Part shown: positions 40,251-53,242 of the stretch, piece after piece | Position numbering within the stretch: the first letter of the stretch is position 1 | Layout: the number at the start of each line of letters is the position of its first letter | From: Chthoniobacterales bacterium | GTDB lineage: Bacteria; Verrucomicrobiota; Verrucomicrobiia; Chthoniobacterales; Chthoniobacteraceae | Direction of reading: 5' to 3' | Length of the DNA: 64,000 nucleotides | Assembly: GCA_038207335.1 (NCBI GenBank) | Contig: JBBQZX010000009.1 | Location: forward strand, 1-64,000 | The notes under the pieces: generated by a model | What the model saw: only the letters and a program-made list of their open reading frames with translations | Databases searched by the model: none | What the model was told of the DNA's origin: nothing | Made by a program: the position numbers and the translations under genes

Positions 40251-40327
40251 TGGCGGAGTCTACGGGACTCGAACCCGCAACCTCTGCCGTGACAGGGCAG
40301 CGCTCTAACCAATTGAGCTAAGACTCC
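40251..40327 (-). tRNA. tRNA-Asp (GTC)
   Basis: Reverse complement GGAGTCTTAGCTCAATTGGTTAGAGCGCTGCCCTGTCACGGCAGAGGTTGCGGGTTCGAGTCCCGTAGACTCCGCCA; cloverleaf with encoded CCA. Confidence 0.97.
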
Positions 40328-40496
40328 TCGAAAGGAGCGGGGACGGTAGATTCGCGCCGGATGCGGAGCAAGATTTTTTCTCGGAAAATCCGCGACGGCG
40401 TCCCGAGTTGAGAACCGAGGATTTCCCGGATGCGAATGCTGAAAACCGCGTCATCGGCGAAATCCGCGGTTTAATTCCGAGAGTCGCGATGTGCGC

Positions 40497-41453
40497 TCAG
40501 GCGCGGGGATGGAATTTGTGATGCACCGCTTTGAGCCGCCGCTGATCGACATGCGTGTAAATCTGCGTAGTCGAAATGTCGGCGTGGCCGAGCAGTTCCT
40601 GAATGATGCGGAGGTCGGCACCGTTGCCGAGCAGATGGGTGGCGAATGAATGCCGGAGGAGATGTGGATAGACGTTGATATCGATGCCGGCGTTTTTCGC
40701 GCACGCCTTCACGATTTGCCAGATGCGGACGGTCGTGAGCTTTGTGCCGCGCGAGGAGAGGAAGACTTCGCTGCCCGTTTTTTTGCGGACGAAATCGGGG
40801 CGTTCGTTCGCGAGGTAGAGCGCGATCGCGGCGCACGCTTTTGCCCCGACGGGCACGAGCCGCGTCTTGTTGCCTTTGCCGGTGACGCGGATGATTCGCG
40901 AGTCGAGGTCGAGATTTTCGAGCCTCGCATTCACGAGTTCGGAGACGCGCAGACCGCTTGCATACAGGAGTTCGAGGATGGCGCGGTCACGCAGGGCACG
41001 CGGGACATTCTCCGGCACGCCGTCGAGGAGATGCTCGACTTGGAGTTCGTTCATCGTTTCCGGCAGGTATCGCTCGGTGCGCGGGAGCGGCAGCAGTTCC
41101 GCGGGATCGCGTTCGATCCGGCGACGCGCCTGGAGCCAGCGGAAGAAGATTTTGATCGCGACGACGATGAGCTTGATCGAGGCCGCCGCGAGGCCGCTGC
41201 GTTTTCGATGCGCGAGGTAGTCGGTGATTTGCGCGTGCGTGATTTCGCGGGGCGCGACGCTCGTTTCCGGCATCTCCGCGCCGCTGCTCGTGAGCTGCGC
41301 GACGGCTGCCTCGCCGAGCGCTTTCACGATTTGCTTTCGCTCGAGCCACGCGGTGAAGCCCTCGAGAGAGAGGCGCGTGGAGATTTGATAATTGTCCGAG
41401 AGCCCGCGCTCGGTCGCGAGGTAGAGGATGAAGTCGTCGATCGACTCGCGCAT
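40497..41453 (-). CDS. xerD: Site-specific tyrosine recombinase XerD-like
   Basis: MRESIDDFILYLATERGLS; SGLRVSEL, GKGNKTR, PHLLRHSFATHLL, LGHADISTTQIY; TGATG coupling to purC. Confidence 0.88.
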   Translation of the reverse strand: MRESIDDFILYLATERGLSDNYQISTRLSLEGFTAWLERKQIVKALGEAAVAQLTSSGAEMPETSVAPREITHAQITDYLAHRKRSGLAAASIKLIVVAIKIFFRWLQARRRIERDPAELLPLPRTERYLPETMNELQVEHLLDGVPENVPRALRDRAILELLYASGLRVSELVNARLENLDLDSRIIRVTGKGNKTRLVPVGAKACAAIALYLANERPDFVRKKTGSEVFLSSRGTKLTTVRIWQIVKACAKNAGIDINVYPHLLRHSFATHLLGNGADLRIIQELLGHADISTTQIYTHVDQRRLKAVHHKFHPRA

Positions 41454-42316
41454 CAGCGGGTGAGCCGGTCGAGCGCTTCGAGATACTTTTCGCTCGTCCT
41501 GCAGATGACCTCGTCGGGCAGCGGCGGCGCGGGCGGCGTCTTGTCCCAATCGAGTGTTTCGAGGTAGTCGCGGACGAATTGCTTGTCGTAGCTCGGCGGG
41601 CTGATGCCGAGCCGATGTTGATCCGCGGGCCAGAAGCGCGAGGAGTCGGGCGTGAGGCATTCGTCAATCAGGATCACGCGCCCATCGAGCAGTCCGAATT
41701 CAAACTTCGTGTCCGCCACGATGATCCCGCGCTCGGAGGCAAATGCGCGTCCTTCCTCATAAATCCGCAGGCTCAGCGCGCGGACTTGTGTCGCGACATC
41801 GTCCCCGATGAGACGGCGGCATTCGTCCCAGGCGATGTTCTGATCGTGCCCGCTCTCCGCTTTAGTTGAGGGCGTGAAAATGGTTTCCGGCAGCCGCTCC
41901 GCCTGCTGCAAACCCGCCGGAAGTGCGACGCCGCAGATGCTCTGCGATGCCTGATATTCCTTCCATCCAGAGCCCGCGAGGTAGCCGCGGACGACGCACT
42001 CGACGGGCAGCGGCTTCGCTTTTTTTACGATCATCGATCGTTGCGAAAGCTCTTCCCATCGGCCTTGGACGGCATCGGGGAGATTTGCGAGATCCGCGTC
42101 GAGGAAGTGATTCTCCACGAAATCGAAGCGCGAAAACCAGAAACGCGAGAGGCTGGTGAGCACCTCGCCTTTTCGCGGAATGCCATTGGGCAGGATGCAG
42201 TCGAAGGCCGAGATGCGGTCCGTCGCGACGAGCAGCAGGCGGTCGCCGAGGTCGAAAATCTCGCGCACTTTTCCACTCGCGATTTTTGTGATGCCGGGCA
42301 GGTCGAGGGTGAGCAT
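41453..42316 (-). CDS. purC: SAICAR synthetase
   Basis: SGKVRE, TDRISAFD, ECVVRGY, ADTKFEFG, TPDSSRFW, SYDKQ. Confidence 0.96.
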   Translation of the reverse strand: MLTLDLPGITKIASGKVREIFDLGDRLLLVATDRISAFDCILPNGIPRKGEVLTSLSRFWFSRFDFVENHFLDADLANLPDAVQGRWEELSQRSMIVKKAKPLPVECVVRGYLAGSGWKEYQASQSICGVALPAGLQQAERLPETIFTPSTKAESGHDQNIAWDECRRLIGDDVATQVRALSLRIYEEGRAFASERGIIVADTKFEFGLLDGRVILIDECLTPDSSRFWPADQHRLGISPPSYDKQFVRDYLETLDWDKTPPAPPLPDEVICRTSEKYLEALDRLTR

Positions 42317-44645: not shown

Positions 44646-44945
44646 AGCGGAGCGCGGGCCTGGCGCGGCGGCTGCCTCCTTGCGCGTTTCGTGGGGGGAC
44701 GAACGCGAGCAGCCGCCGTGACAGGCCCGCGCGCAGCGGTTCGCGCAAGCTCCCGGCGTGACAGCCGCGCGGCGGGAACGGGGCGGGCGGGGGTTAGGGT
44801 CCGCTGCGCGGCCAGCAGGCACCGTGACGCGCGAGGGAGCGGCGCGGTTAAGCGGGGCCGCTCGCTCGCGTGGCGCGATGCCTGCACGGTTGGGGCACGC
44901 AACCCACCCGCGGCGGGACGCCGCCACACTTCAACGGCAAGGCGG

Positions 44946-45755
44946 TTAAGCGCGGCGTTTCGAAGCAATCGCGACGATGGCAAGCAAGGTGAGGATTCCC
45001 ACCACCCACGGCCACACCGGCGCTCCGCGCTCAACGGTCGGCGCGGGACTTTCAGCAACCTTTGGTGCCGACGGAGCAACCGGCATGGCAGTTGGAGTCG
45101 CCATCGGCCGTGCAAACGTAGTCGGGGGCGACTGATCTGGAATAGGACTCGGTGCCTTTGGCAGTTCGGGTTTGGACGCTTCGGCCTCGCGTTGCAACGT
45201 TGCCTGCCAAAACTCAGATTCGTCTGTCCCCATATCCGCAAGCCATGCATCCCGCTTCTTCCGCTCCAAAGTTAGACTCGCATTCGAAGAACGTCGGTGA
45301 ATGGAAAGCAATAACACCTCGTCAGCGACATGCCACCGCAGGACACGGGTAACACTTGTGGACGCATCTTCAAAGTTCGGGACATCTGATAATCTGGCGG
45401 AACCATGCTGCTCTTGGAGTTTGGCTGCCATCCCTTTAAACGCTTCCTCGGCAACAGCAGCTGGAAGTAATGGATCATCAGTCCAGTAGCTGAGAGCATT
45501 GAATTTACCTCCGTCTAACTTGGCACGCCCCGCAAAAGTCAGTCCGAACGCGGAGAGTTTCTTAAGTTTTTGCTCGGTCGCTTTTGAATCTAAAGCGACG
45601 GGCGCATCCAGGTATCGAGCTGCTTTTGCGTTTGTTGGACTGCCTAAGTTCTGCGCGACAATACCGAGGAGTTCCTCGTCGCTAGCCAGCGCGGGGCCAT
45701 ACGCTAGCAACCCGCAGATAAACAGCCCGCTGGTTCGTAGCAAACAAAGATTCAT
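44946..45755 (-). CDS. Exported, C-terminally membrane-anchored hypothetical protein (candidate immunity protein)
   Basis: Signal peptide, Pro-rich linker, terminal TM VWPWVVGILTLLAIVAIASKRRA; ATGA overlap with the amidase gene; visibly lower GC than backbone genes. Confidence 0.7.
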   Translation of the reverse strand: MNLCLLRTSGLFICGLLAYGPALASDEELLGIVAQNLGSPTNAKAARYLDAPVALDSKATEQKLKKLSAFGLTFAGRAKLDGGKFNALSYWTDDPLLPAAVAEEAFKGMAAKLQEQHGSARLSDVPNFEDASTSVTRVLRWHVADEVLLLSIHRRSSNASLTLERKKRDAWLADMGTDESEFWQATLQREAEASKPELPKAPSPIPDQSPPTTFARPMATPTAMPVAPSAPKVAESPAPTVERGAPVWPWVVGILTLLAIVAIASKRRA

Positions 45756-48700
45756 TGGGCGGGTTGTGCGCGAAGGTCATCAATGCTCGCATTCCCCAAT
45801 GCTTTAGCAGCTTCCTCACGCATCCTGTTAGCCGTGGCTGACAAGGTTGCATTTCCCTCGTTGAAAAGGAGATCAGCGTTTGTGTTAGACATCCATTCCA
45901 TCTCGATCAGCGCCGCTCTGCATGGTGTGTGGCCGGCGATGTTGCCGTTATAGTTAGGGGTTGCTGGGTCGGTGCTGTCGGAAAGAGTATCCAGTCCCTT
46001 TTGCAGATTAGCTTCATGCTGCTCCGAAGTAATCCCGTCAGTTGGAGCGTTGCGGCTCGCTTGCGGCTCAACAGCCGCGATTGCCGTCTGCACCCCTTGG
46101 CGTAGTCGAATCGCAAGAGCTTGATCTTCTGCAAGATTAAGGTTGCCAGTTGCGTCCCACATTCCAAATGGATGTCGCCTCAAGGGAACTCCATCTACGG
46201 AGTTGAAGTGGATGCTGACATAAACATCACAACCATTCTCCCTTGCCACTTTCGTCCGGTCAGGGAACGAGACGTTCGCCGTTCCGGTGCGTGTGAGAAA
46301 GACTTTGAGTTGAAGATGTTCAGTGTCTCGACGTCTCCGCAAGTCCGCTGCCATACGCTGCGCAACATCGAGGGCAAAGGCGTGCTCTTGGGCTCCGGTT
46401 GTTACTCCCGTGCCGCCGAGCGCATTCGATCCTCCAGCCGCACCAATTCCGTGACCGGGATCAATTACGATAACGCCAGGCACTTCCAAATCGATGAGTT
46501 CAAGCGGTGAAGTAGTTCCTTCGATCTGAATCTTGATGCGGGCTTTGTTCAGGCCTATTGGCGGAACATTCACTCGAATCGCAGTAAACCCGTCGGCATC
46601 AATGGTCGTTTCCCCTTGTTCTTGAGAGACCCGACGATAGCTGTGAGCAGTAAAAGTTGTTGATGCTTCAAACCGATCCCGGTGAGCTGCTACCGCGCGA
46701 TCCCAGCTACCCCGGAAGACCGGTGGAAGATTCAGACCATTCGGATCAAAGGACCGGGTAAAGAGAGGATCCATCGACCAAGTAACTTTCTTGTCCTTGA
46801 GGGCCGAACCGATCTTCACTTTCAATTCACGCCACGCGATTCGGATGGCAGCCGCGTCGTTTTGGTTGGCAGCGGGATCCCTCTCAACCATCGCATTGGA
46901 TTGAGGGTTTGGTTTCGGTTTCTCAGAGCCTGCAATCTCGTTGCCATCGTCATCCCTGAGCTTGGGCGCTAACTCGACTACTTCCACTGGGAGGAGGAGG
47001 GCGGGGTTGGAAAGCCAAGCAATGTTTTCTGGATCCGACACGGTGCCTTCGGGTGTCCAGAATGTGCCGACGCAATTTCCAGCAGAGTTTATTGCGTTTG
47101 GATAGATGGGAGTCGGCGGTTCGAGGGTCGGGTCTCGAGATTCCGGTAGCGGGAAGGCTTGGAGGGCGACATGGAAATATGGGTCGCTGGGAGTCCATTC
47201 GGCTATGCAATGTTGATTGAGAAGCCACTGCCCTTGGCCGGTGGCATCGGAACCATATACGTCGGCGTAAAAGATGATGCTCGTCCGGTGGGTGATCGGA
47301 TTCGGGTTCGTGATCATTACCGGGTTCGCGTTCTGAAACTGCGATCTCAGTTGTGGGGGAAAGTTATTCATGAAAACTCTCTCTCGTACGGAATCCGATA
47401 ACTCGGATGTTTGGATGAAGCCGAGATACCCCCATCCTTTGCGCGTATGCGATGGGTTGTCTGGGAGTGGGTCCGGAAAGTCCTCGGTCGGATTCTCCCA
47501 CTGGTAACTAATCCCATCATTGAGAAGTCCGATGACCTCCCTTCGGTCATTGATCGCAGTCGGAGTGCAGCGGCCGAGTGAAGTGTAGGTTCCGGCGAGG
47601 TTCCAAATGAGGTTGTCGGTCACCACGATGTTTCCAGTTACAATATCTCTGCCTGTGATGTTTATAATCTCCAAGCCATTCTCGCTTATCGCGACGAAGT
47701 TCGCGCCTTCTATTGCTGTGATCGGAGTGCCAACGAGAAATTGGCGAAATGGCGCTCTTACGAGACCTTCATAGTCATCAAATTCGCCGTGGATAGTCCC
47801 AGGATAGGCAAGCTCCCCCCCTTTCACTCCTGTGCCCGTCACTTTGTAAATGACGCAGCCCATCTCTGGCGTAGTGTCAGCCCATACTCCGTTCCGCAGG
47901 TCTGGTGGAGCTGGCGGATTGTCGTGTGGCAAAGGAATGAGGTATGCAGGTACTGGAACATCGTCAGGTATGCCTCGCTCGTAATTCCACTCGTAATCGC
48001 CTTCCTTTTTTTCCCAAGTATTGCATGAGCCAACAAGTTCTCCCCATGTGGAGACGGAATTGCCAATGTATAACTTTTCTTTAGATACGTCACCATCCCA
48101 AGTTGTTTCTTTCTTGAATTCTTTCACACTGGTGATCGCGCCATCTGCCCACGCACTCGCGATATATCTGTTTGACTGAAAAAATGCGGCTACCCACGCC
48201 ACATGAGTCTGTTCGTCGATCGCCAAAAACTCGTTCTGTCCAGGTTGAACCGGCTCGCCATTAAAGGTGAACTTGCTCAAATCGATCAGCGCATACGCTT
48301 TTACGGGGATGTCTTGACTCCGCAAGGGGTCAGTGGGGTATTGGTCGAGGTAGTCTGGGACGCCATCCCCGTCGCTATCTTGGGCGCTAGTCGGGATATT
48401 TGGATCGGTGCCGTTGGCGATTTCGTCGCCATCGCTGATGCCGTCGCCGTCGGTGTCGGAGTTGTGGGGGTCGGTGTGGATGCCTCCACCGTTGTCACCG
48501 CCGATTTCGTCGATGTCGCGGATGCCGTCACCGTCACTGTCGCGGTTGAAATCGAATGCGAAGAGGTTCTTGACTTGGCCGATGTTGACAAGGGTGAAGT
48601 CGTTGGTGCCTGGGGGGGTGAGATTCCACGGGTAGATGCTGCCGAGGCCAACCTCTGCGAGGCGGTCGTAAAAGGGCTTTGCAATGGTTTTGAGTTGAAA

Positions 48701-49075
48701 GAGAGTGACGGCTGCATACTCGTCGTGGGTGACGCCTGACGTGGGAGCCCATGCGGCGACGAGGTTTTCGATTGTTGAGCCGGCACCACCGGGGAGCCTG
48801 CTGAATTCCACGGCGGCTTGGGTGACGATTTGTTTGACTTGGCCGGTATTGGGGGCCGTAAAGTTGTCCACGCTCGGGTAGCTGCCGGGCCATTGGGGCG
48901 TGGAGTCGATGGAATTGGTGCGCTTGATCACGTCGCGAGTGAACCACCAATCGGGGTATTCGGGCGGTTTGTCGAGGGGTATGGGACCCGCGATGCTGAC
49001 GGTGGCGCTCCAGACGAGGAGGAGCAGCCAGGCGGTGACGCGGGTGGCCATGGGAGGGGAGGTGCGATGTTGCAT
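45752..49075 (-). CDS. Secreted modular protein: N-terminal triple-repeat domain, TSP3-like DxDxDG repeats, unknown middle, C-terminal N-acetylmuramoyl-L-alanine amidase (Amidase_3)
   Basis: Signal peptide; DSDGDGIRD, DTDGDGISD, DSDGDGVPD; amidase motifs VIVIDPGHG, QEHAFAL, FLTRT, YVSIHFNS, ALIEMEWMSN. Confidence 0.85.
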   Translation of the reverse strand: MQHRTSPPMATRVTAWLLLLVWSATVSIAGPIPLDKPPEYPDWWFTRDVIKRTNSIDSTPQWPGSYPSVDNFTAPNTGQVKQIVTQAAVEFSRLPGGAGSTIENLVAAWAPTSGVTHDEYAAVTLFQLKTIAKPFYDRLAEVGLGSIYPWNLTPPGTNDFTLVNIGQVKNLFAFDFNRDSDGDGIRDIDEIGGDNGGGIHTDPHNSDTDGDGISDGDEIANGTDPNIPTSAQDSDGDGVPDYLDQYPTDPLRSQDIPVKAYALIDLSKFTFNGEPVQPGQNEFLAIDEQTHVAWVAAFFQSNRYIASAWADGAITSVKEFKKETTWDGDVSKEKLYIGNSVSTWGELVGSCNTWEKKEGDYEWNYERGIPDDVPVPAYLIPLPHDNPPAPPDLRNGVWADTTPEMGCVIYKVTGTGVKGGELAYPGTIHGEFDDYEGLVRAPFRQFLVGTPITAIEGANFVAISENGLEIINITGRDIVTGNIVVTDNLIWNLAGTYTSLGRCTPTAINDRREVIGLLNDGISYQWENPTEDFPDPLPDNPSHTRKGWGYLGFIQTSELSDSVRERVFMNNFPPQLRSQFQNANPVMITNPNPITHRTSIIFYADVYGSDATGQGQWLLNQHCIAEWTPSDPYFHVALQAFPLPESRDPTLEPPTPIYPNAINSAGNCVGTFWTPEGTVSDPENIAWLSNPALLLPVEVVELAPKLRDDDGNEIAGSEKPKPNPQSNAMVERDPAANQNDAAAIRIAWRELKVKIGSALKDKKVTWSMDPLFTRSFDPNGLNLPPVFRGSWDRAVAAHRDRFEASTTFTAHSYRRVSQEQGETTIDADGFTAIRVNVPPIGLNKARIKIQIEGTTSPLELIDLEVPGVIVIDPGHGIGAAGGSNALGGTGVTTGAQEHAFALDVAQRMAADLRRRRDTEHLQLKVFLTRTGTANVSFPDRTKVARENGCDVYVSIHFNSVDGVPLRRHPFGMWDATGNLNLAEDQALAIRLRQGVQTAIAAVEPQASRNAPTDGITSEQHEANLQKGLDTLSDSTDPATPNYNGNIAGHTPCRAALIEMEWMSNTNADLLFNEGNATLSATANRMREEAAKALGNASIDDLRAQPAQ

Positions 49076-49093
49076 TGGGCGATGGCCTCGAGT

Positions 49094-50785
49094 CTAGGGC
49101 ACTGGGTTGGGACCGAATGCCCCCATGGAGAGGTCGCCTTGGGGCTCGATGTGGACGGGGCCGTCGAAGCGGGCGGTGCCGGCGACGTGGAGCTGGGCTA
49201 GCGGCTGCGCGATGCCGATACCGACGTCGCCGGCGGGGGTGATTCGCACTCTTTCGACGGATGGGACTGGGTTGGCTCCGTTCCCGGTGCCGGCGGTTTT
49301 GATGAGGACGGCACCGCCTTGTCCGTTGCCGAAGCCGTCGCCGCCGGCGATGGAGAGGTCGGCCCCGGCGACGGTTTCGGCAGATGCGCCGGTGGCGTGG
49401 AGGGTGAAGCCGATCGGGTTTGCCGATGCTTTGCCGTTGCCGAAGTAGCCGTTGGCGATGAAGCCGTTCCCGGCGAGGTTGTCTCCTCCGACAATCAATT
49501 GATTGCTGCTGGATGCGGTGATTGAATCGTCTGAGTAAGCTCCGAGGAATATGTTGAATGAACCGAGTAAATTATGCAGGCCTGCAGTATACCCAATGGC
49601 TGTGTTGAAATTCCCGGTCGTATTGCCGATTCCGGCTGCGCTACCAATGAAAATGTTATGAGAGCCCTCCGTGTTCTCGGCTCCTGTCACGGCTCCAATG
49701 AATACGTTCGAGTAGCCCGACGTGTTTCGATAGCCGGTGCTGTCGCCAATAAACTGATTCTCACTGCCGACCGTGTTACCTCTGCCAGCGAAAACCCCCA
49801 TGAAGGTGTTGGCTATCCCAGATGTGTTATTCTCCCCAGCTTGTCGGCCAATGAAATTATTGTAAGTCCCGGTCGTATTATAGTATCCGGACCCAGCACC
49901 CATGAAGTTGTTAAAGGCTCCGGTGGTGTTGAATACACCGCTGTTGACAGAGATGAAATTGTTGCAGTAACCTGTGGTGTTGCTATACCCGGCGTTTCCT
50001 CCCACGAAATTGTTGCAGCTTCCTAAATCGTTGTTGCGACCGGCATTTGCTCCAAGGAAGTTGTTGCCGCCACCTTGCGAGTTTGACAATCCAGCGCCGG
50101 TGCCGGCGAAAAAGTTACCCGCTCCTTGAGAGCCGGGATTTCCCGCGCCCGCGAGGGCAATTCCGTCGGGGCTGCTGCGAGATAAGATTTCGACGCCGTT
50201 GATTTTTAAGGCACCGCCTTGGATGTTGAGGGCAGGAATGGTGAGTGGCGAACCAGCGGTGATGTTGCAGATGCCGTTGTAGCCATTGGCGCTGCTGGCG
50301 AATCTGCTCTCTGTGAGTACATTGGAGCCGTTGATCGTGATGCTTCCGTTGCTGTTTGGATTGAGAGCGATGGTCGGCGTATTCGAATTCGACGGATACA
50401 AGAGTAAATCGTTCGACACATCGAGGGTCATCTGCGGGAAAGAAGTGCCATTGAGATCGGCTTTTTCCCACTGCAGCGCGATCGTCGGCTTGGCTAGGAA
50501 AAATCTTAGAACGGAAGTGGGGAGAGCCGGGTCTTCACCGTAGCTCAGAGTCAGCGCCTGCGATTCTCCAATCTGAGTCGTTGCCCTGCCAAAGTAAAAC
50601 TCGCTGCCTGCAACATCGAGGACATTGTGAAGGGTGGTGGCACCGTTGACATCTAGCGAACCGCCGATGGTAGCATTGCCGTTGACATCGAGCTCGGTGA
50701 AGGATTCAGGGAAGGCAGGAATCTGGGAGGAAAGGAGGAGGGCGATGCAGGTGGTGAGGATGCGGTGGGAGGCTTGTTTTTTCAT
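49094..50785 (-). CDS. Secreted trimeric adhesin/tail-fibre-like protein with 17-aa beta-roll repeats
   Basis: Signal-like N-terminus; about 12 NNFxGxxAGxxNTTGxx repeats; C-terminal ERVRITPAGDVGIGIAQPLAQLHVAG and PQGDLSMGAF. Confidence 0.8.
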   Translation of the reverse strand: MKKQASHRILTTCIALLLSSQIPAFPESFTELDVNGNATIGGSLDVNGATTLHNVLDVAGSEFYFGRATTQIGESQALTLSYGEDPALPTSVLRFFLAKPTIALQWEKADLNGTSFPQMTLDVSNDLLLYPSNSNTPTIALNPNSNGSITINGSNVLTESRFASSANGYNGICNITAGSPLTIPALNIQGGALKINGVEILSRSSPDGIALAGAGNPGSQGAGNFFAGTGAGLSNSQGGGNNFLGANAGRNNDLGSCNNFVGGNAGYSNTTGYCNNFISVNSGVFNTTGAFNNFMGAGSGYYNTTGTYNNFIGRQAGENNTSGIANTFMGVFAGRGNTVGSENQFIGDSTGYRNTSGYSNVFIGAVTGAENTEGSHNIFIGSAAGIGNTTGNFNTAIGYTAGLHNLLGSFNIFLGAYSDDSITASSSNQLIVGGDNLAGNGFIANGYFGNGKASANPIGFTLHATGASAETVAGADLSIAGGDGFGNGQGGAVLIKTAGTGNGANPVPSVERVRITPAGDVGIGIAQPLAQLHVAGTARFDGPVHIEPQGDLSMGAFGPNPVP

Positions 50786-50819
50786 AGGTCGAGAGGTTGG
50801 GCGGTGTGAGTTGCGTTTC

Positions 50820-50849
50820 GGGTCGCCAAGAGGGTCGCCAAGAGGGTCG
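50820..50849. repeat. 12-bp tandem duplication (gggtcgccaaga x2.5)
   Basis: Directly visible in the intergenic region. Confidence 0.7.
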
Positions 50850-50862
50850 ATGTTTCCGTCGC

Positions 50863-51477
50863 CTAGCCGGCGAAGGGGCAGGTGACGATGTCGCTGTCTT
50901 GGCCGACTTCGGTGTCGCCGATGATGCCGCGGGCCATGTATTCACGGTCTTCGGGGGCGCCGGGGACGAGGAGGGGGGTCTGGTCGTCGTAGGGGAAAGT
51001 TTTGCGGGCGGGGGCGACGAGGAGCCACGCGGCGTTGTTGCGGCGCAGGTAGATATTGACGCGTTCGGCGTAGTTTTTGGTGCCGGTGATGCGGACGTGG
51101 CCGCGCATGGGCTCGACTTTGATGACGGGCTTGATGGTGTTTGGCGGGGGCGTGTAGGCGCTGGTGAAGATGCGCATGGCATTGCCCAAGCCGGTGGTGA
51201 AGGCCGGGTTGGCCTTGATCTGGTGGATGAAGTCGCGCAGCGGGGTGTTGCTGTCGTGGAAGAGCTGGTGGGCGTCGCCGCTGGCGGTATCGAGGACGGT
51301 CTGGGCGTCGATGACGGCCTGGTAGGCGGCGATGAGCGGGTCGATGAGGGCGTTGAACGCGGTGACGGCGGCGGCGTTCAGGCTGAGGGTGGTGGCGTTG
51401 TCGGCGACCTCTTGCTTGAGGTCTTTGAGCCACTGGAGGCGGTTTGCGAAGGAGTCGGGGATGAAGTCGTTGGCCAT
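50863..51477 (-). CDS. Hypothetical 204-aa protein (amphipathic helical N-half, beta-sandwich-like C-half)
   Basis: Clean ORF with strong codon bias; MANDFIP.. start; C-terminal REYMARGIIGDTEVGQDSD. Confidence 0.8.
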   Translation of the reverse strand: MANDFIPDSFANRLQWLKDLKQEVADNATTLSLNAAAVTAFNALIDPLIAAYQAVIDAQTVLDTASGDAHQLFHDSNTPLRDFIHQIKANPAFTTGLGNAMRIFTSAYTPPPNTIKPVIKVEPMRGHVRITGTKNYAERVNIYLRRNNAAWLLVAPARKTFPYDDQTPLLVPGAPEDREYMARGIIGDTEVGQDSDIVTCPFAG

Positions 51478-51597
51478 GGTTCGGGGTAGGTTGGTGGTTC
51501 TTGGTTTCGCTGTTTAGAGGTGAAAACGGGCGGTTTCTCTGCGGCGCGGGCGAGGTTAGGGGTGCCGGAGGGTGAATGTGAGGGCGTCGCCTCTGTA

Positions 51598-51891
51598 GAG
51601 GAGGTTTCCAAGCGAGCTGGCGGGGTTTCCAGCGGGATTGGCGGGTACGCCAATGCGATTGGCATACTGGCGGATTGGATTGGCGGGGTTTCCAATCGAA
51701 TTGGCGTACTCGCCAAGTCGAATGGCGGGGTTTCCAATGTGATTGGTGGGTACGCCAATCCGATTGGAGTAGTTCCCAGCGCAATTGGCGTACTTGCCAA
51801 TCGGGCTGGCGGCGCTGTGGATCGAGATGGCAGGGTAGCGGACCGGGCTGGATAGGATGCCGGACGACGCGGCGACGGTGCGGGGGTTCGC
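51598..51891. repeat. Degenerate 21-bp-period tandem array (about 14 units)
   Basis: Units such as ggcggggtttccagcgggatt, ggcgggtacgccaatgcgatt, ggcggggtttccaatcgaatt, ggcgtactcgccaagtcgaat, in exact 21-nt register. Confidence 0.85.
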
Positions 51892-52252
51892 GGGGAGGGG
51901 GTTTTCGCGCGTGGGGGACACGGGAGCACAGTTGAGCGGGTGGCCAATGCGGTGTCTGTCCGGGATGAGCCCCCATTTTGAGGTGGAGACGCTGGAGGGG
52001 AGGAGGCGTGGGCATTTGCTTACGCTGAGGAGGGGATTGGTGCGATTTTCCCCGGACACTGCTCCCCTACAAATGGGGCGGTTCAGTGTTCAAATCGCGG
52101 CATTTTGAGTGTTGTTTGGTGGAGGTGAGGGCGCTGATTTGGTTGCGTTTCTCTGCCATGCGTCGGGGGTGAAAAGCGGGGGATGGTGGTCCTTCGTTGC
52201 ACTCAGGATGACAGGGTGGGGAGGGGTGCGATCGTCGTTGCGGTGAGCAAGT

Positions 52253-52305
52253 TTGTAGGGCGACCGCTTCGGTTGCCCAAGGCAGGCGGAGTGCCTGCCC
52301 TACAA
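52253..52305. repeat. GTAG-type REP doublet
   Basis: ttgtagggcgaccgcttcggttgccc-aa-ggcaggcggagtgcctgccctacaa. Confidence 0.7.
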
Positions 52306-52396
52306 TTTTCCGGCAAGCTGAATCGCTTTGGGGAAATTCTTGAGGCAGGGTGTGGGTGAAGGTGCTCTACTCGGGCTGTGTCACGTTGCTCCCTCG

Positions 52397-53242
52397 ATGA
52401 TTGATCCTTTTAAGAAGCCACGCGTGCTGGTGGTGATGGCTGTGCCGGGGCTGCGGACGGGGATGTCGATGTTTCTCGAAAAGGAGGGGTCGCTGGAGGT
52501 GTGCGGGGAGACGTGCAAGGCGGCGGAGGCGCGGGCAATGTGCGGGGAGTTGCTCCCGGATGCGATCGTGCTGGACCCAGAGGTGGCGGGGCTGGGGCTG
52601 GCGCTGGTGCGCGATTTCAAAAAACTGCACCGGGCGGCTTCGACGGCGCTGTATGCGAGGCGGATCGATGCGGAGCAGGTGCGCCGGGCTTTCAAGGCGG
52701 GGGCGCAAGGTTATTTCTCGCAATCGGAGGAGTTGCCGACGGTGGTGGCGGAGCTGGTGCGGGTCTGCTGGGGGGAGCGGGTGATGAGCCCGGCGGTATC
52801 GCGGCAGATGACGCGCGATTTTACAAAGGGGAATGACAGGACGGCCGGGCTGGAGCGGATTTCGGCGCGGGAGCAGGATGTCCTATGGCTGCTGGGCCAT
52901 GGGAAGGGGGAGTCGGCGATCGCGCTGGAGCTGGGGGTGGGTGTGAAGACGGTGGAGACGTATTTCGAGCGGCTGAAGCAGAAGCTCTCGCTGAAGGATG
53001 CCGCGCAACTGCTGGCGGTGGCACGGGAATATGCGCGGCAGCACTCGGAGGTGAGCGGCCGCGCCATGGAGGCGGGGCGAGAGGGATCGGCAGGCGCGGA
53101 TGTGGGGGAGAAGGCGGTGGCGATGCTGTCGGAGGTGGGTGCGCCGCCGCTGATGCGGGGGTTCTTCGCGACTGATTTTCTCGCGCCCCCATCGGGTGCG
53201 CGGGGGACTCGCAGCTTCCGCTACTCGCGGAGGCGGGTGTAG
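52397..53242 (+). CDS. NarL/LuxR family response regulator with atypical receiver
   Basis: REC-like N-terminus; LuxR HTH ISAREQDVLWLLGHGKGESAIALELGVGVKTVETY. Confidence 0.82.
   Translation: MIDPFKKPRVLVVMAVPGLRTGMSMFLEKEGSLEVCGETCKAAEARAMCGELLPDAIVLDPEVAGLGLALVRDFKKLHRAASTALYARRIDAEQVRRAFKAGAQGYFSQSEELPTVVAELVRVCWGERVMSPAVSRQMTRDFTKGNDRTAGLERISAREQDVLWLLGHGKGESAIALELGVGVKTVETYFERLKQKLSLKDAAQLLAVAREYARQHSEVSGRAMEAGREGSAGADVGEKAVAMLSEVGAPPLMRGFFATDFLAPPSGARGTRSFRYSRRRV

What the first reader, a model, noticed from the sequence alone, without database searches (positions are those of the whole stretch)
48560..48960. Three YadA-neck-like motifs in one chain: possible pseudo-trimeric cap for the fibre
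Seen: the N-terminal domain repeats DNFTAPNTGQVK, DEYAAVTLFQLK and DFTLVNIGQVK, each followed by a helix-like segment. Established: DAVNxxQL is the neck motif of trimeric autotransporter adhesins, normally contributed once by each of three chains. Inference: one polypeptide mimics a trimer and docks 1:3 on the tip of the neighbouring homotrimeric fibre, placing a single effector on it.
Basis: partly seen in the sequence, partly recalled or inferred. Interest (0 to 1): 0.8.

Follow-up and report, generated by a model that had tools for sequence, protein, structure and literature searches.

The report
Single-chain cap for trimeric bacterial fibres
In Verrucomicrobiota, a small three-repeat domain at the front of large secreted proteins is usually encoded next to a fibre-like protein ending in a short conserved tag, and it is predicted to grip three such tags at once, which would fasten one interchangeable cargo (here a likely cell-wall amidase) to one three-stranded fibre.

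Summary
The three motifs are real and far beyond chance. They define an unannotated ~130-residue domain with 2,758 clusters at 50% identity, found almost only in Verrucomicrobiota. It follows a signal peptide and precedes very variable cargo.

In 103 of 132 test loci a same-strand gene ending within 1 kb upstream carries a conserved tail (PQGD[LI]SMGxF), or the tail is fused to the domain. The opposite strand gave 0 of 6,013 ORFs. These upstream proteins carry collagen, YadA-head or phage-fibre repeats and no barrel anchor. Seven loci carry natural tail-plus-domain fusions.

A 3:1 prediction scored 0.82 against a best control of 0.02 (mark reached by 116 of 157 solved and 2 of 215 mismatched pairs; counts only rough here). 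All three tails sat on exactly the three motifs.

Corrections: the motif is an N-capping beta-layer, not strict DAVNxxQL. The nearest solved fold is the SLH pseudo-trimer (Z about 7, weak), without its sugar-binding Arg. 'Tip' and 'effector' are unproven.

Verdict: a likely new PAAR/gp38-like symmetry adaptor for Sec-exported fibres. Binding is predicted, not measured.

The parts
49094..50785 (-). Fibre-like gene, 563 aa: signal peptide, 17-residue NxF[ILMV]G repeats, phage-fibre-type repeat, C-terminal tag; no anchor or transmembrane segment found
   Evidence: PHROGs tail spike/tail fibre matches; no Pfam or NCBIfam match
49112..49159 (-). C-terminal tag of the fibre (residues 543-558, includes PQGDLSMG); the predicted cap-binding segment in all three copies
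45752..49051 (-). Cap-cargo gene, 1099 aa from the probable start (ORF opens at 49075)
   Evidence: P0005
48542..48973 (-). Cap domain: three beta-layer/helix repeats, predicted pseudo-threefold
48833..48868 (-). Repeat motif 1 (residues 70-81)
48689..48724 (-). Repeat motif 2 (residues 118-129; Phe in place of the family Gly)
48569..48604 (-). Repeat motif 3 (residues 158-169)
48311..48535 (-). Acidic TSP3-type repeats following the cap (likely calcium-binding linker)
   Evidence: Pfam TSP3_bac E 1.3e-7, over cut-off
45857..46471 (-). C-terminal Amidase_3 domain (N-acetylmuramoyl-L-alanine amidase), the likely cargo enzyme
   Evidence: Pfam 58.6 bits against cut-off 27; His/Glu motifs located (their catalytic role recalled)
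44946..45755 (-). 269-aa gene overlapping the cargo stop by 4 bases; signal-like N-terminus and C-terminal hydrophobic segment; candidate immunity partner (untested)
   Evidence: 12 unannotated relatives

Best explanation
The domain is a three-repeat module in one chain that is predicted to act as a pseudo-trimeric cap: it would bind the three C-terminal tags of the likely trimeric fibre encoded just upstream, and so load one interchangeable cargo, here a likely peptidoglycan amidase, on one fibre. Shown: the repeats, the tag, their gene linkage, natural fusions and the variable cargo. Predicted: each repeat gives one strand to a beta-layer and one helix to a three-helix core; each tag lies across two neighbouring repeats, with its Ile against the beta-layer and its Leu/Met against the start of a helix. 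Inferred: both proteins are Sec-exported and assemble outside the cytoplasm as a 3:1 complex. The fibre's lectin-like or adhesin domains would give reach or targeting, and the cargo with its downstream gene would behave as a swappable toxin-immunity-like cassette. I put the binding at about 0.85, 1:3 at about 0.75, and the antagonistic role at about 0.55.
For: (1) Linkage: a tag profile trained on loci L001-L030 scored >=15 at the C-terminus of 121 of 542 same-strand ORFs ending within 1 kb upstream, 4 of 2,141 further upstream, 1 of 2,052 downstream and 0 of 6,013 on the opposite strand. Per locus with >=1 kb upstream: 56 of 70 genome loci and 47 of 62 metagenome loci. (2) In the same 301 genomes: cap in 33, tag in 33 (E<=0.01), both in 29; all 26 genomes with a tag at E<=0.001 have a cap. 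(3) Partners are trimer-type: of 70 upstream proteins scanned (70 of 88 full-length ones), 16 have YadA heads, 8 collagen, 13 LamG, 5 Gly_rich_2, and none a YadA anchor; collagen runs into the last 58 residues in 18 of 128 tails. (4) Complex: score 0.82 in three runs, best control 0.02; mark reached by 116 of 157 solved and 2 of 215 mismatched pairs (rough here); contacts agree >=86%, partner pLDDT >=76; interface = fibre 543-558 in all three copies with cap 70-83, 118-131, 158-171. (5) Seven loci encode mini-fibre + tag + cap in one ORF, all keeping the tag Met. The separate upstream fibre there lacks that Met in 5 of 5 and in 2 of 2 more, against 122 of 122 other tags with it. This asymmetry fits a mixed trimer with one cap. 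(6) Motif residues obey the published N-capping beta-layer rule (PMC4786415). (7) Cargo C-termini fall in 46 clusters among 159; RHS in 7 of 10 large genes behind short caps; third-position GC 0.76-0.81 in cap and tag region against 0.52-0.56 in cargo and downstream gene.
Against: No binding or stoichiometry was measured, and only the 3:1 ratio was modelled. 14 of 70 and 15 of 62 loci, and both viral-collection loci, have no tag within 1 kb. 4 of 33 cap genomes have no tag match, and 9 of 250 proteins carry the domain internally or C-terminally. The test loci include duplicates and at least five loci also in the training set, and kin are not independent. The fusions probably come from one lineage (three from genome G245), and the 122 of 122 count excludes divergent Met-less tails that fell below the profile threshold (L023, L025). 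No downstream gene matched a named immunity family (0 of 26), and only 5 of 33 cargo C-termini matched any Pfam family. Many cargoes are non-enzymatic (RCC1, Ig, LamG). Neither partner shows an anchor (0 of 105 complete caps have a TM-like segment after the domain), so where the complex sits is unknown.
Confidence: 0.62

Rival explanations
1. Same 1:3 binding, opposite role: the cap sits at the fibre's base and stands in for the missing autotransporter barrel, tethering an adhesin fibre to a large surface or matrix scaffold. The 'cargo' would be structural or housekeeping.
For: The tag is at the C-terminal end, where trimeric autotransporters have their anchor (PMC7247746). CBM96 is N-terminal in all 8 collagen fibres. 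Many cap proteins carry RCC1, Ig, fn3 or LamG arrays.
Against: No membrane anchor seen in 105 complete caps. Cargo C-termini are hypervariable and include amidase, alpha/beta hydrolase, CHAP-like and RHS. The window fibre's last repeat matches phage tail fibres.
Confidence: 0.2
2. The cap is a transient trimerisation chaperone for the fibre, like an S74 domain or T4-type gp38 supplied in trans, and is released afterwards.
For: The tag follows a repeat of the kind that precedes S74 in Bdellovibrio MAT fibres (PMC10769870); fibre pLDDT was 81-82 with the cap and 67-70 with unrelated partners.
Against: The cap is nearly always joined to long variable cargo and is covalently fused to a tag in seven loci; no S74 match in 70 fibres.
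Confidence: 0.07
3. The domain is a divergent SLH-type cell-wall glycan anchor, and the fibre gene is only an operon neighbour.
For: SLH trimers are the top fold matches for two family members (Z 7.2, rmsd 4.5, 107 aligned; Z 6.7, rmsd 4.2, 105 aligned) and in Foldseek (E 0.4-0.6).
Against: The sugar-binding Arg position holds Arg in 1 of 450 repeats, TRAE-like motifs occur in 0 of 150 and GIIxG-like in 5 of 150; Pfam SLH 0 of 150. It does not explain the tag, the fusions or the predicted interface.
Confidence: 0.05
4. Cap and tag bind, but 1:1 per chain (3:3) or as a branching network.
For: Only 3:1 was modelled. In an AlphaFold2 model of a fusion, one tag alone became moderately ordered (pLDDT about 70 against 55 for the strands before it).
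Against: One cap engaged the same residues of all three tags through its three repeats; the Met asymmetry in fusion loci.
Confidence: 0.06

Closest known systems
Trimeric autotransporter neck (DAVNxxQL; Pfam PF05662) and N-capping beta-layers (PMC4786415, PMC7247746)
   Same: Hydrophobic-x-Asn strand triplet, capping Gln three residues on, helix start; partner fibres often carry YadA heads.
   Different: Three copies in one chain; Asp displaced and Gly fixed before Gln; no long coiled-coil stalk; fibres end in a tag, not a beta-barrel anchor.
SLH domain trimer (Sap, SpaA; PF00395; PMC6081394)
   Same: Single chain with pseudo-threefold beta-layer, three core helices and outer helices; the only monomeric beta-layer case listed in the PMC4786415 passages read; nearest solved fold.
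   Different: 6-8% identity; TRAE Arg and GIIxG absent; predicted ligand is a peptide trimer, not a pyruvylated wall polymer. Common ancestry is not shown.
PAAR on VgrG (T6SS; PMC10715212)
   Same: Pseudo-trimeric monomer closing a homotrimer end; carrying of fused effectors and RHS links (recalled).
   Different: Helical fold, no conserved Cys/His metal site, signal peptides on both partners, no sequence or fold match.
T2/S16-type gp38 adhesin on gp37 (PMC12032242, PMC12892980)
   Same: Monomer fixed by an N-terminal attachment domain to the end of a trimeric fibre, with a variable C-terminal part, encoded next to the fibre.
   Different: Cellular, secreted; no PHROGs match for the cap; three repeated beta-layer motifs; cargo of up to several thousand residues.
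Polymorphic toxin systems (PMC3482391) and Bdellovibrio MAT fibres (PMC10769870)
   Same: Constant N-terminus, variable C-terminus, small downstream gene, RHS; mosaic phage-like secreted trimeric fibres.
   Different: Neither is described, in the passages read, with a fibre tag or a cap; toxicity and immunity are untested here.

Membership tests
Trimeric autotransporter neck / adhesin | DAVNxxQL consensus | tested here: not met
   0 strict matches in 150 caps; register differs
Trimeric autotransporter neck / adhesin | N-capping beta-layer residues (beta3 = D/N/T/S, g = D/E/Q) | tested here: met
   [NTS]xGQ at 420 of 450 repeat positions; rule from PMC4786415; bridges at the motifs in both models
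Trimeric autotransporter neck / adhesin | Pfam PF05662 over curated cut-off | tested here: inconclusive
   27 of 150 at E<=0.5, best 3.4e-7; P0035 25.8 bits against 28.4, profile 14-38 of 43; window copy no match
Trimeric autotransporter neck / adhesin | One motif per chain, C-terminal beta-barrel anchor | tested here: not met
   three motifs per chain; no anchor family in 70 partner fibres or the window fibre
SLH domain | Pseudo-threefold three-pronged fold | tested here: inconclusive
   top hit twice but Z 7.2 and 6.7, under the tool's reliable range
SLH domain | TRAE Arg and GIIxG motif | tested here: not met
   Arg 1 of 450; TRAE-like 0 of 150; GIIxG-like 5 of 150; Pfam SLH 0 of 150
SLH domain | Binds pyruvylated wall polymer | not testable with these tools
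   needs a binding assay
PAAR | PAAR motifs and Cys/His metal site, beta cone | tested here: not met
   no conserved Cys or His column; helical model; no Pfam PAAR match
PAAR | T6SS or contractile-system context | tested here: inconclusive
   neighbour clustering over 162 loci showed no such recurrent cluster, but clusters were not annotated
T-even gp38 adhesin | Phage tail gene, gp38 attachment domain and polyglycine sandwich | tested here: not met
   no PHROGs match for three cap sequences; context cellular
T-even gp38 adhesin | Monomer bound 1:3 at the fibre C-terminus | tested here: inconclusive
   predicted only
Polymorphic toxin system | Constant N-terminus with variable C-terminal domains | tested here: met
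   46 clusters among 159 C-termini
Polymorphic toxin system | Downstream immunity gene | tested here: inconclusive
   abutting small genes are common; 0 of 26 match a named immunity family
Polymorphic toxin system | Toxicity neutralised by the partner | not testable with these tools
   needs expression assays
Amidase_3 (cargo) | Pfam PF01520 over cut-off | tested here: met
   58.6 bits against 27

The most novel reading that the evidence does not exclude
A Verrucomicrobiota-wide plug-in weapon or display system of A1B3 design. Any trimeric fibre (collagen, YadA-head, phage-type or a bare 90-residue mini-trimer) carrying a 16-residue tag is captured by a single-chain beta-layer cap, an SLH-like fold that binds a peptide trimer instead of a sugar. 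The cap arms the fibre with one swappable enzyme or RHS toxin, with no injection machine or membrane anchor. In one lineage the cap chain joins the fibre itself as a 2:1 heterotrimer.
Probability: 0.4. Interest if true: 0.88.

Novelty: new variant of a known kind. Interest (0 to 1): 0.74.

Why it matters
The published beta-layer survey lists one monomeric pseudo-threefold case, SLH. This would be a second, with a different job, and it bridges adhesin necks and SLH in one family. It would add a third independent solution to 3:1 capping beside PAAR and gp38, name a large unannotated family pair (2,758 clusters) in an abundant, poorly understood phylum, and suggest how its anchorless fibres and RHS or hydrolase proteins work together. 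A 16-residue tag with a 130-residue cap would also be a compact tool for putting exactly one cargo on a trimer such as collagen. It is testable with two small constructs.

Tried and rejected
Split-neck idea (fibre tag = first strand of a neck): profile comparison with 16 necks was negative at all 25 offsets. It is not supported by sequence.

Inter-chain covariation on 128 paired rows: 9 of the top 15 pairs fell in the predicted interface against 5.7 expected, including tag Ile with repeat-1 Asn. Too weak and confounded by kinship to count.

ESM Atlas: SLH cluster at 0.88 and 0.85, recognition under the mark; leads only.

No significant hit in PDB sequences (a SadA neck at E 4.3), the viral fold library, NCBIfam, or plasmids. 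Pfam and NCBIfam give no family for the window's cap.

A profile-profile comparison with SLH was not done: no SLH set could be gathered (the single hit was not an SLH protein by its ORFs). The self-comparison showed only the main diagonal.

A mixed alignment of tags and caps misaligned and was dropped. A pilin-like signal motif was seen in only 11 of 215 caps and rejected. An 'LLPVE' hinge occurred in 11 of 212 long caps, so it is not general.

No RNA holder listed. The possible source run covers 44726-52500 without differences; two other runs gave short pieces only. No earlier findings.

Literature searches that found no description of this pair: (open-access library only; listings and selected passages, no supplements).
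Full report
Observation. The region lies in a 1,107-codon minus-strand ORF (probable start 49051) with a signal-like N-terminus, an unannotated domain, TSP3-type repeats and a C-terminal Amidase_3. The three motifs are at residues 70, 118 and 158. They are not chance and are the most conserved part of a large family: 152 relatives by word search and 2,758 clusters at 50% identity by profile. The domain is single-copy in this genome. It starts within the first 110 residues in 241 of 250 proteins. It occurs in 33 of 301 genomes of the phylum and 6 of 11 of the genus. The best 80 of 226 named genome hits are almost all Verrucomicrobiota, including Kiritimatiellae and Lentisphaeria; two short contigs carry other labels and may be mis-binned, and several records are titled only as bacterium.

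What the motif is. Against 16 necks from plasmid autotransporters, each repeat matches the neck core (scores 10.6-13.3 against about -8 +/- 4), but the register is DYAxVN against TDAVN, and strict DAVNxxQL never occurs. Pfam YadA_stalk is the most frequent weak family (27 of 150). AlphaFold2 gives a confident fold with a helix after each motif and bridges at the motifs. Its nearest solved structures are SLH trimers, in Foldseek and in the wide aligner for two members (Z 7.2 and 6.7). These scores are below the reliable range. The two resemblances agree: PMC4786415 (passages) treats necks and SLH as N-capping beta-layers, gives the residue rule that 420 of 450 repeats obey, and names SLH as the only monomeric pseudo-threefold case it found. 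The SLH sugar-binding Arg and GIIxG (PMC6081394, passages) are absent. The domain is therefore built like SLH with neck-like letters, and is a member of neither family.

The partner. The gene 42 bases upstream encodes a 563-aa fibre-like protein. In related loci the upstream gene ends in a tag, PQGD[LI]SMGxF. A profile trained on 15 tags from 30 loci found it within 1 kb upstream, or fused, in 56 of 70 genome loci and 47 of 62 metagenome loci. It was found in 0 of 2 viral-collection loci and 0 of 6,013 opposite-strand ORFs; 28 loci with under 1 kb upstream were left out, and duplicates and some training loci remain in the test set. In 301 genomes the two modules overlap in 29 of 33; the four tag-only hits are weak (E 0.001-0.006), and the four cap-only genomes include one divergent tail and one broken cap. 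The alignments were partly built from these genomes. In an independent protein search 60 of 63 hits carried the tag, 56 at the C-terminus. The tag follows collagen, YadA heads or phage-fibre repeats, and no anchor was found. That the fibres are trimers is inferred from these families.

The complex. Three copies of the last 58 fibre residues and one cap scored 0.82 against a best control of 0.02. The mark was reached by 116 of 157 solved and 2 of 215 mismatched pairs, counts that hold only roughly here. Runs agreed in at least 86% of contacts, with partner pLDDT at least 76. The interface is the tag in all three copies and the three motifs in the cap. Likeness to solved necks may help the score. 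Seven loci fuse a short fibre segment and tag to the cap. There the separate fibre has lost the tag Met (7 of 7) while the fused copy keeps it, against 122 of 122 other scored tags. This fits a mixed trimer with a single cap, but the cases are kin. An AlphaFold2 model of one fusion ordered the tag only moderately.

Role. Cargo is highly variable (36 of 46 long caps scanned). Short caps often precede RHS proteins (7 of 10). Small abutting genes follow most long caps, but none of 26 (of 28) matched a named immunity family, and 28 of 33 (of 44) C-termini had no Pfam match. In the window, the cap and tag region have high third-position GC while cargo and downstream gene are low, as expected for a swapped cassette. 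I therefore favour a cargo-loading adaptor with an antagonistic payload here. Polarity is open: lectin-like domains lie N-terminal in collagen fibres, so the cap could be a base, while the window fibre ends like a phage fibre (PMC10769870 passages).

Comparison and novelty. It works like PAAR on VgrG (PMC10715212, passages) and gp38 on gp37 (PMC12032242, PMC12892980, passages), but shares neither fold nor context with them. The neck definition is from PMC7247746 (passages). PMC3482391 (term search of the first 300,000 characters) has no mention of YadA, collagen or SLH. Five searches of the open library found no description of the pair; subscription papers and supplements were not seen. Verdict: new variant of a known kind, interest 0.74. 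The linkage is shown, the 1:3 binding is predicted, and the biological role is inferred.

Noticed in passing
L019, L034, L058, L060, L068, L091, L119, L135, L066, L077, L159 (cap ORF ends): About half of complete cap proteins are short (46 of 94 with under 250 residues after the domain) and end in one of a few recurrent C-terminal motifs, often right before a large secreted or RHS gene; possibly a second linking module.
   Followed up: partly
L241:1822-2103, L209:1489-1830: Minimal fibres of about 90 residues (signal peptide, a few strands, tag) lying about 6 kb from the cap gene.
   Followed up: partly
L022 upstream ORF (230 aa); L246:1625-5578; P0305: Tag placed internally; in L022 it is followed by a region resembling a phage tail-collar domain (label recalled, not scanned).
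   Followed up: no
P0026, P0102, L235:715-3186: A domain of 140-200 residues is inserted between repeats 1 and 2 of the cap (PA14 in P0026), showing a permissive loop.
   Followed up: partly
L023, L025: Caps with Thr instead of Asn in all three repeats sit behind fibres with a divergent Met-less tail; possible co-variation, two related cases only.
   Followed up: no
L124:3-632 and 35 further loci: A conserved same-strand gene about 1.9 kb upstream of the cap in 36 loci, unannotated; may be a further component in one lineage.
   Followed up: no
L044:2634-3164: A tag-bearing ORF ends 4 bases before the cap frame; looks like a tag-cap fusion interrupted by a frame change.
   Followed up: no
window 50863-51477 (-): 204-aa gene without Pfam, NCBIfam or PHROGs match, upstream of the fibre; two paralogues in the genome and a relative near the module in L036.
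   Followed up: partly
L045, L052, L062, L073, L109, L153 downstream genes: Secreted proteins with a carboxypeptidase-regulatory-like domain follow hydrolase-type cargo (6 of 26); candidate immunity family.
   Followed up: partly
window 40251-41660: tRNA-Asp beside a tyrosine-recombinase-like ORF (label from its sequence, recalled), 4 kb from the low-GC cassette.
   Followed up: no
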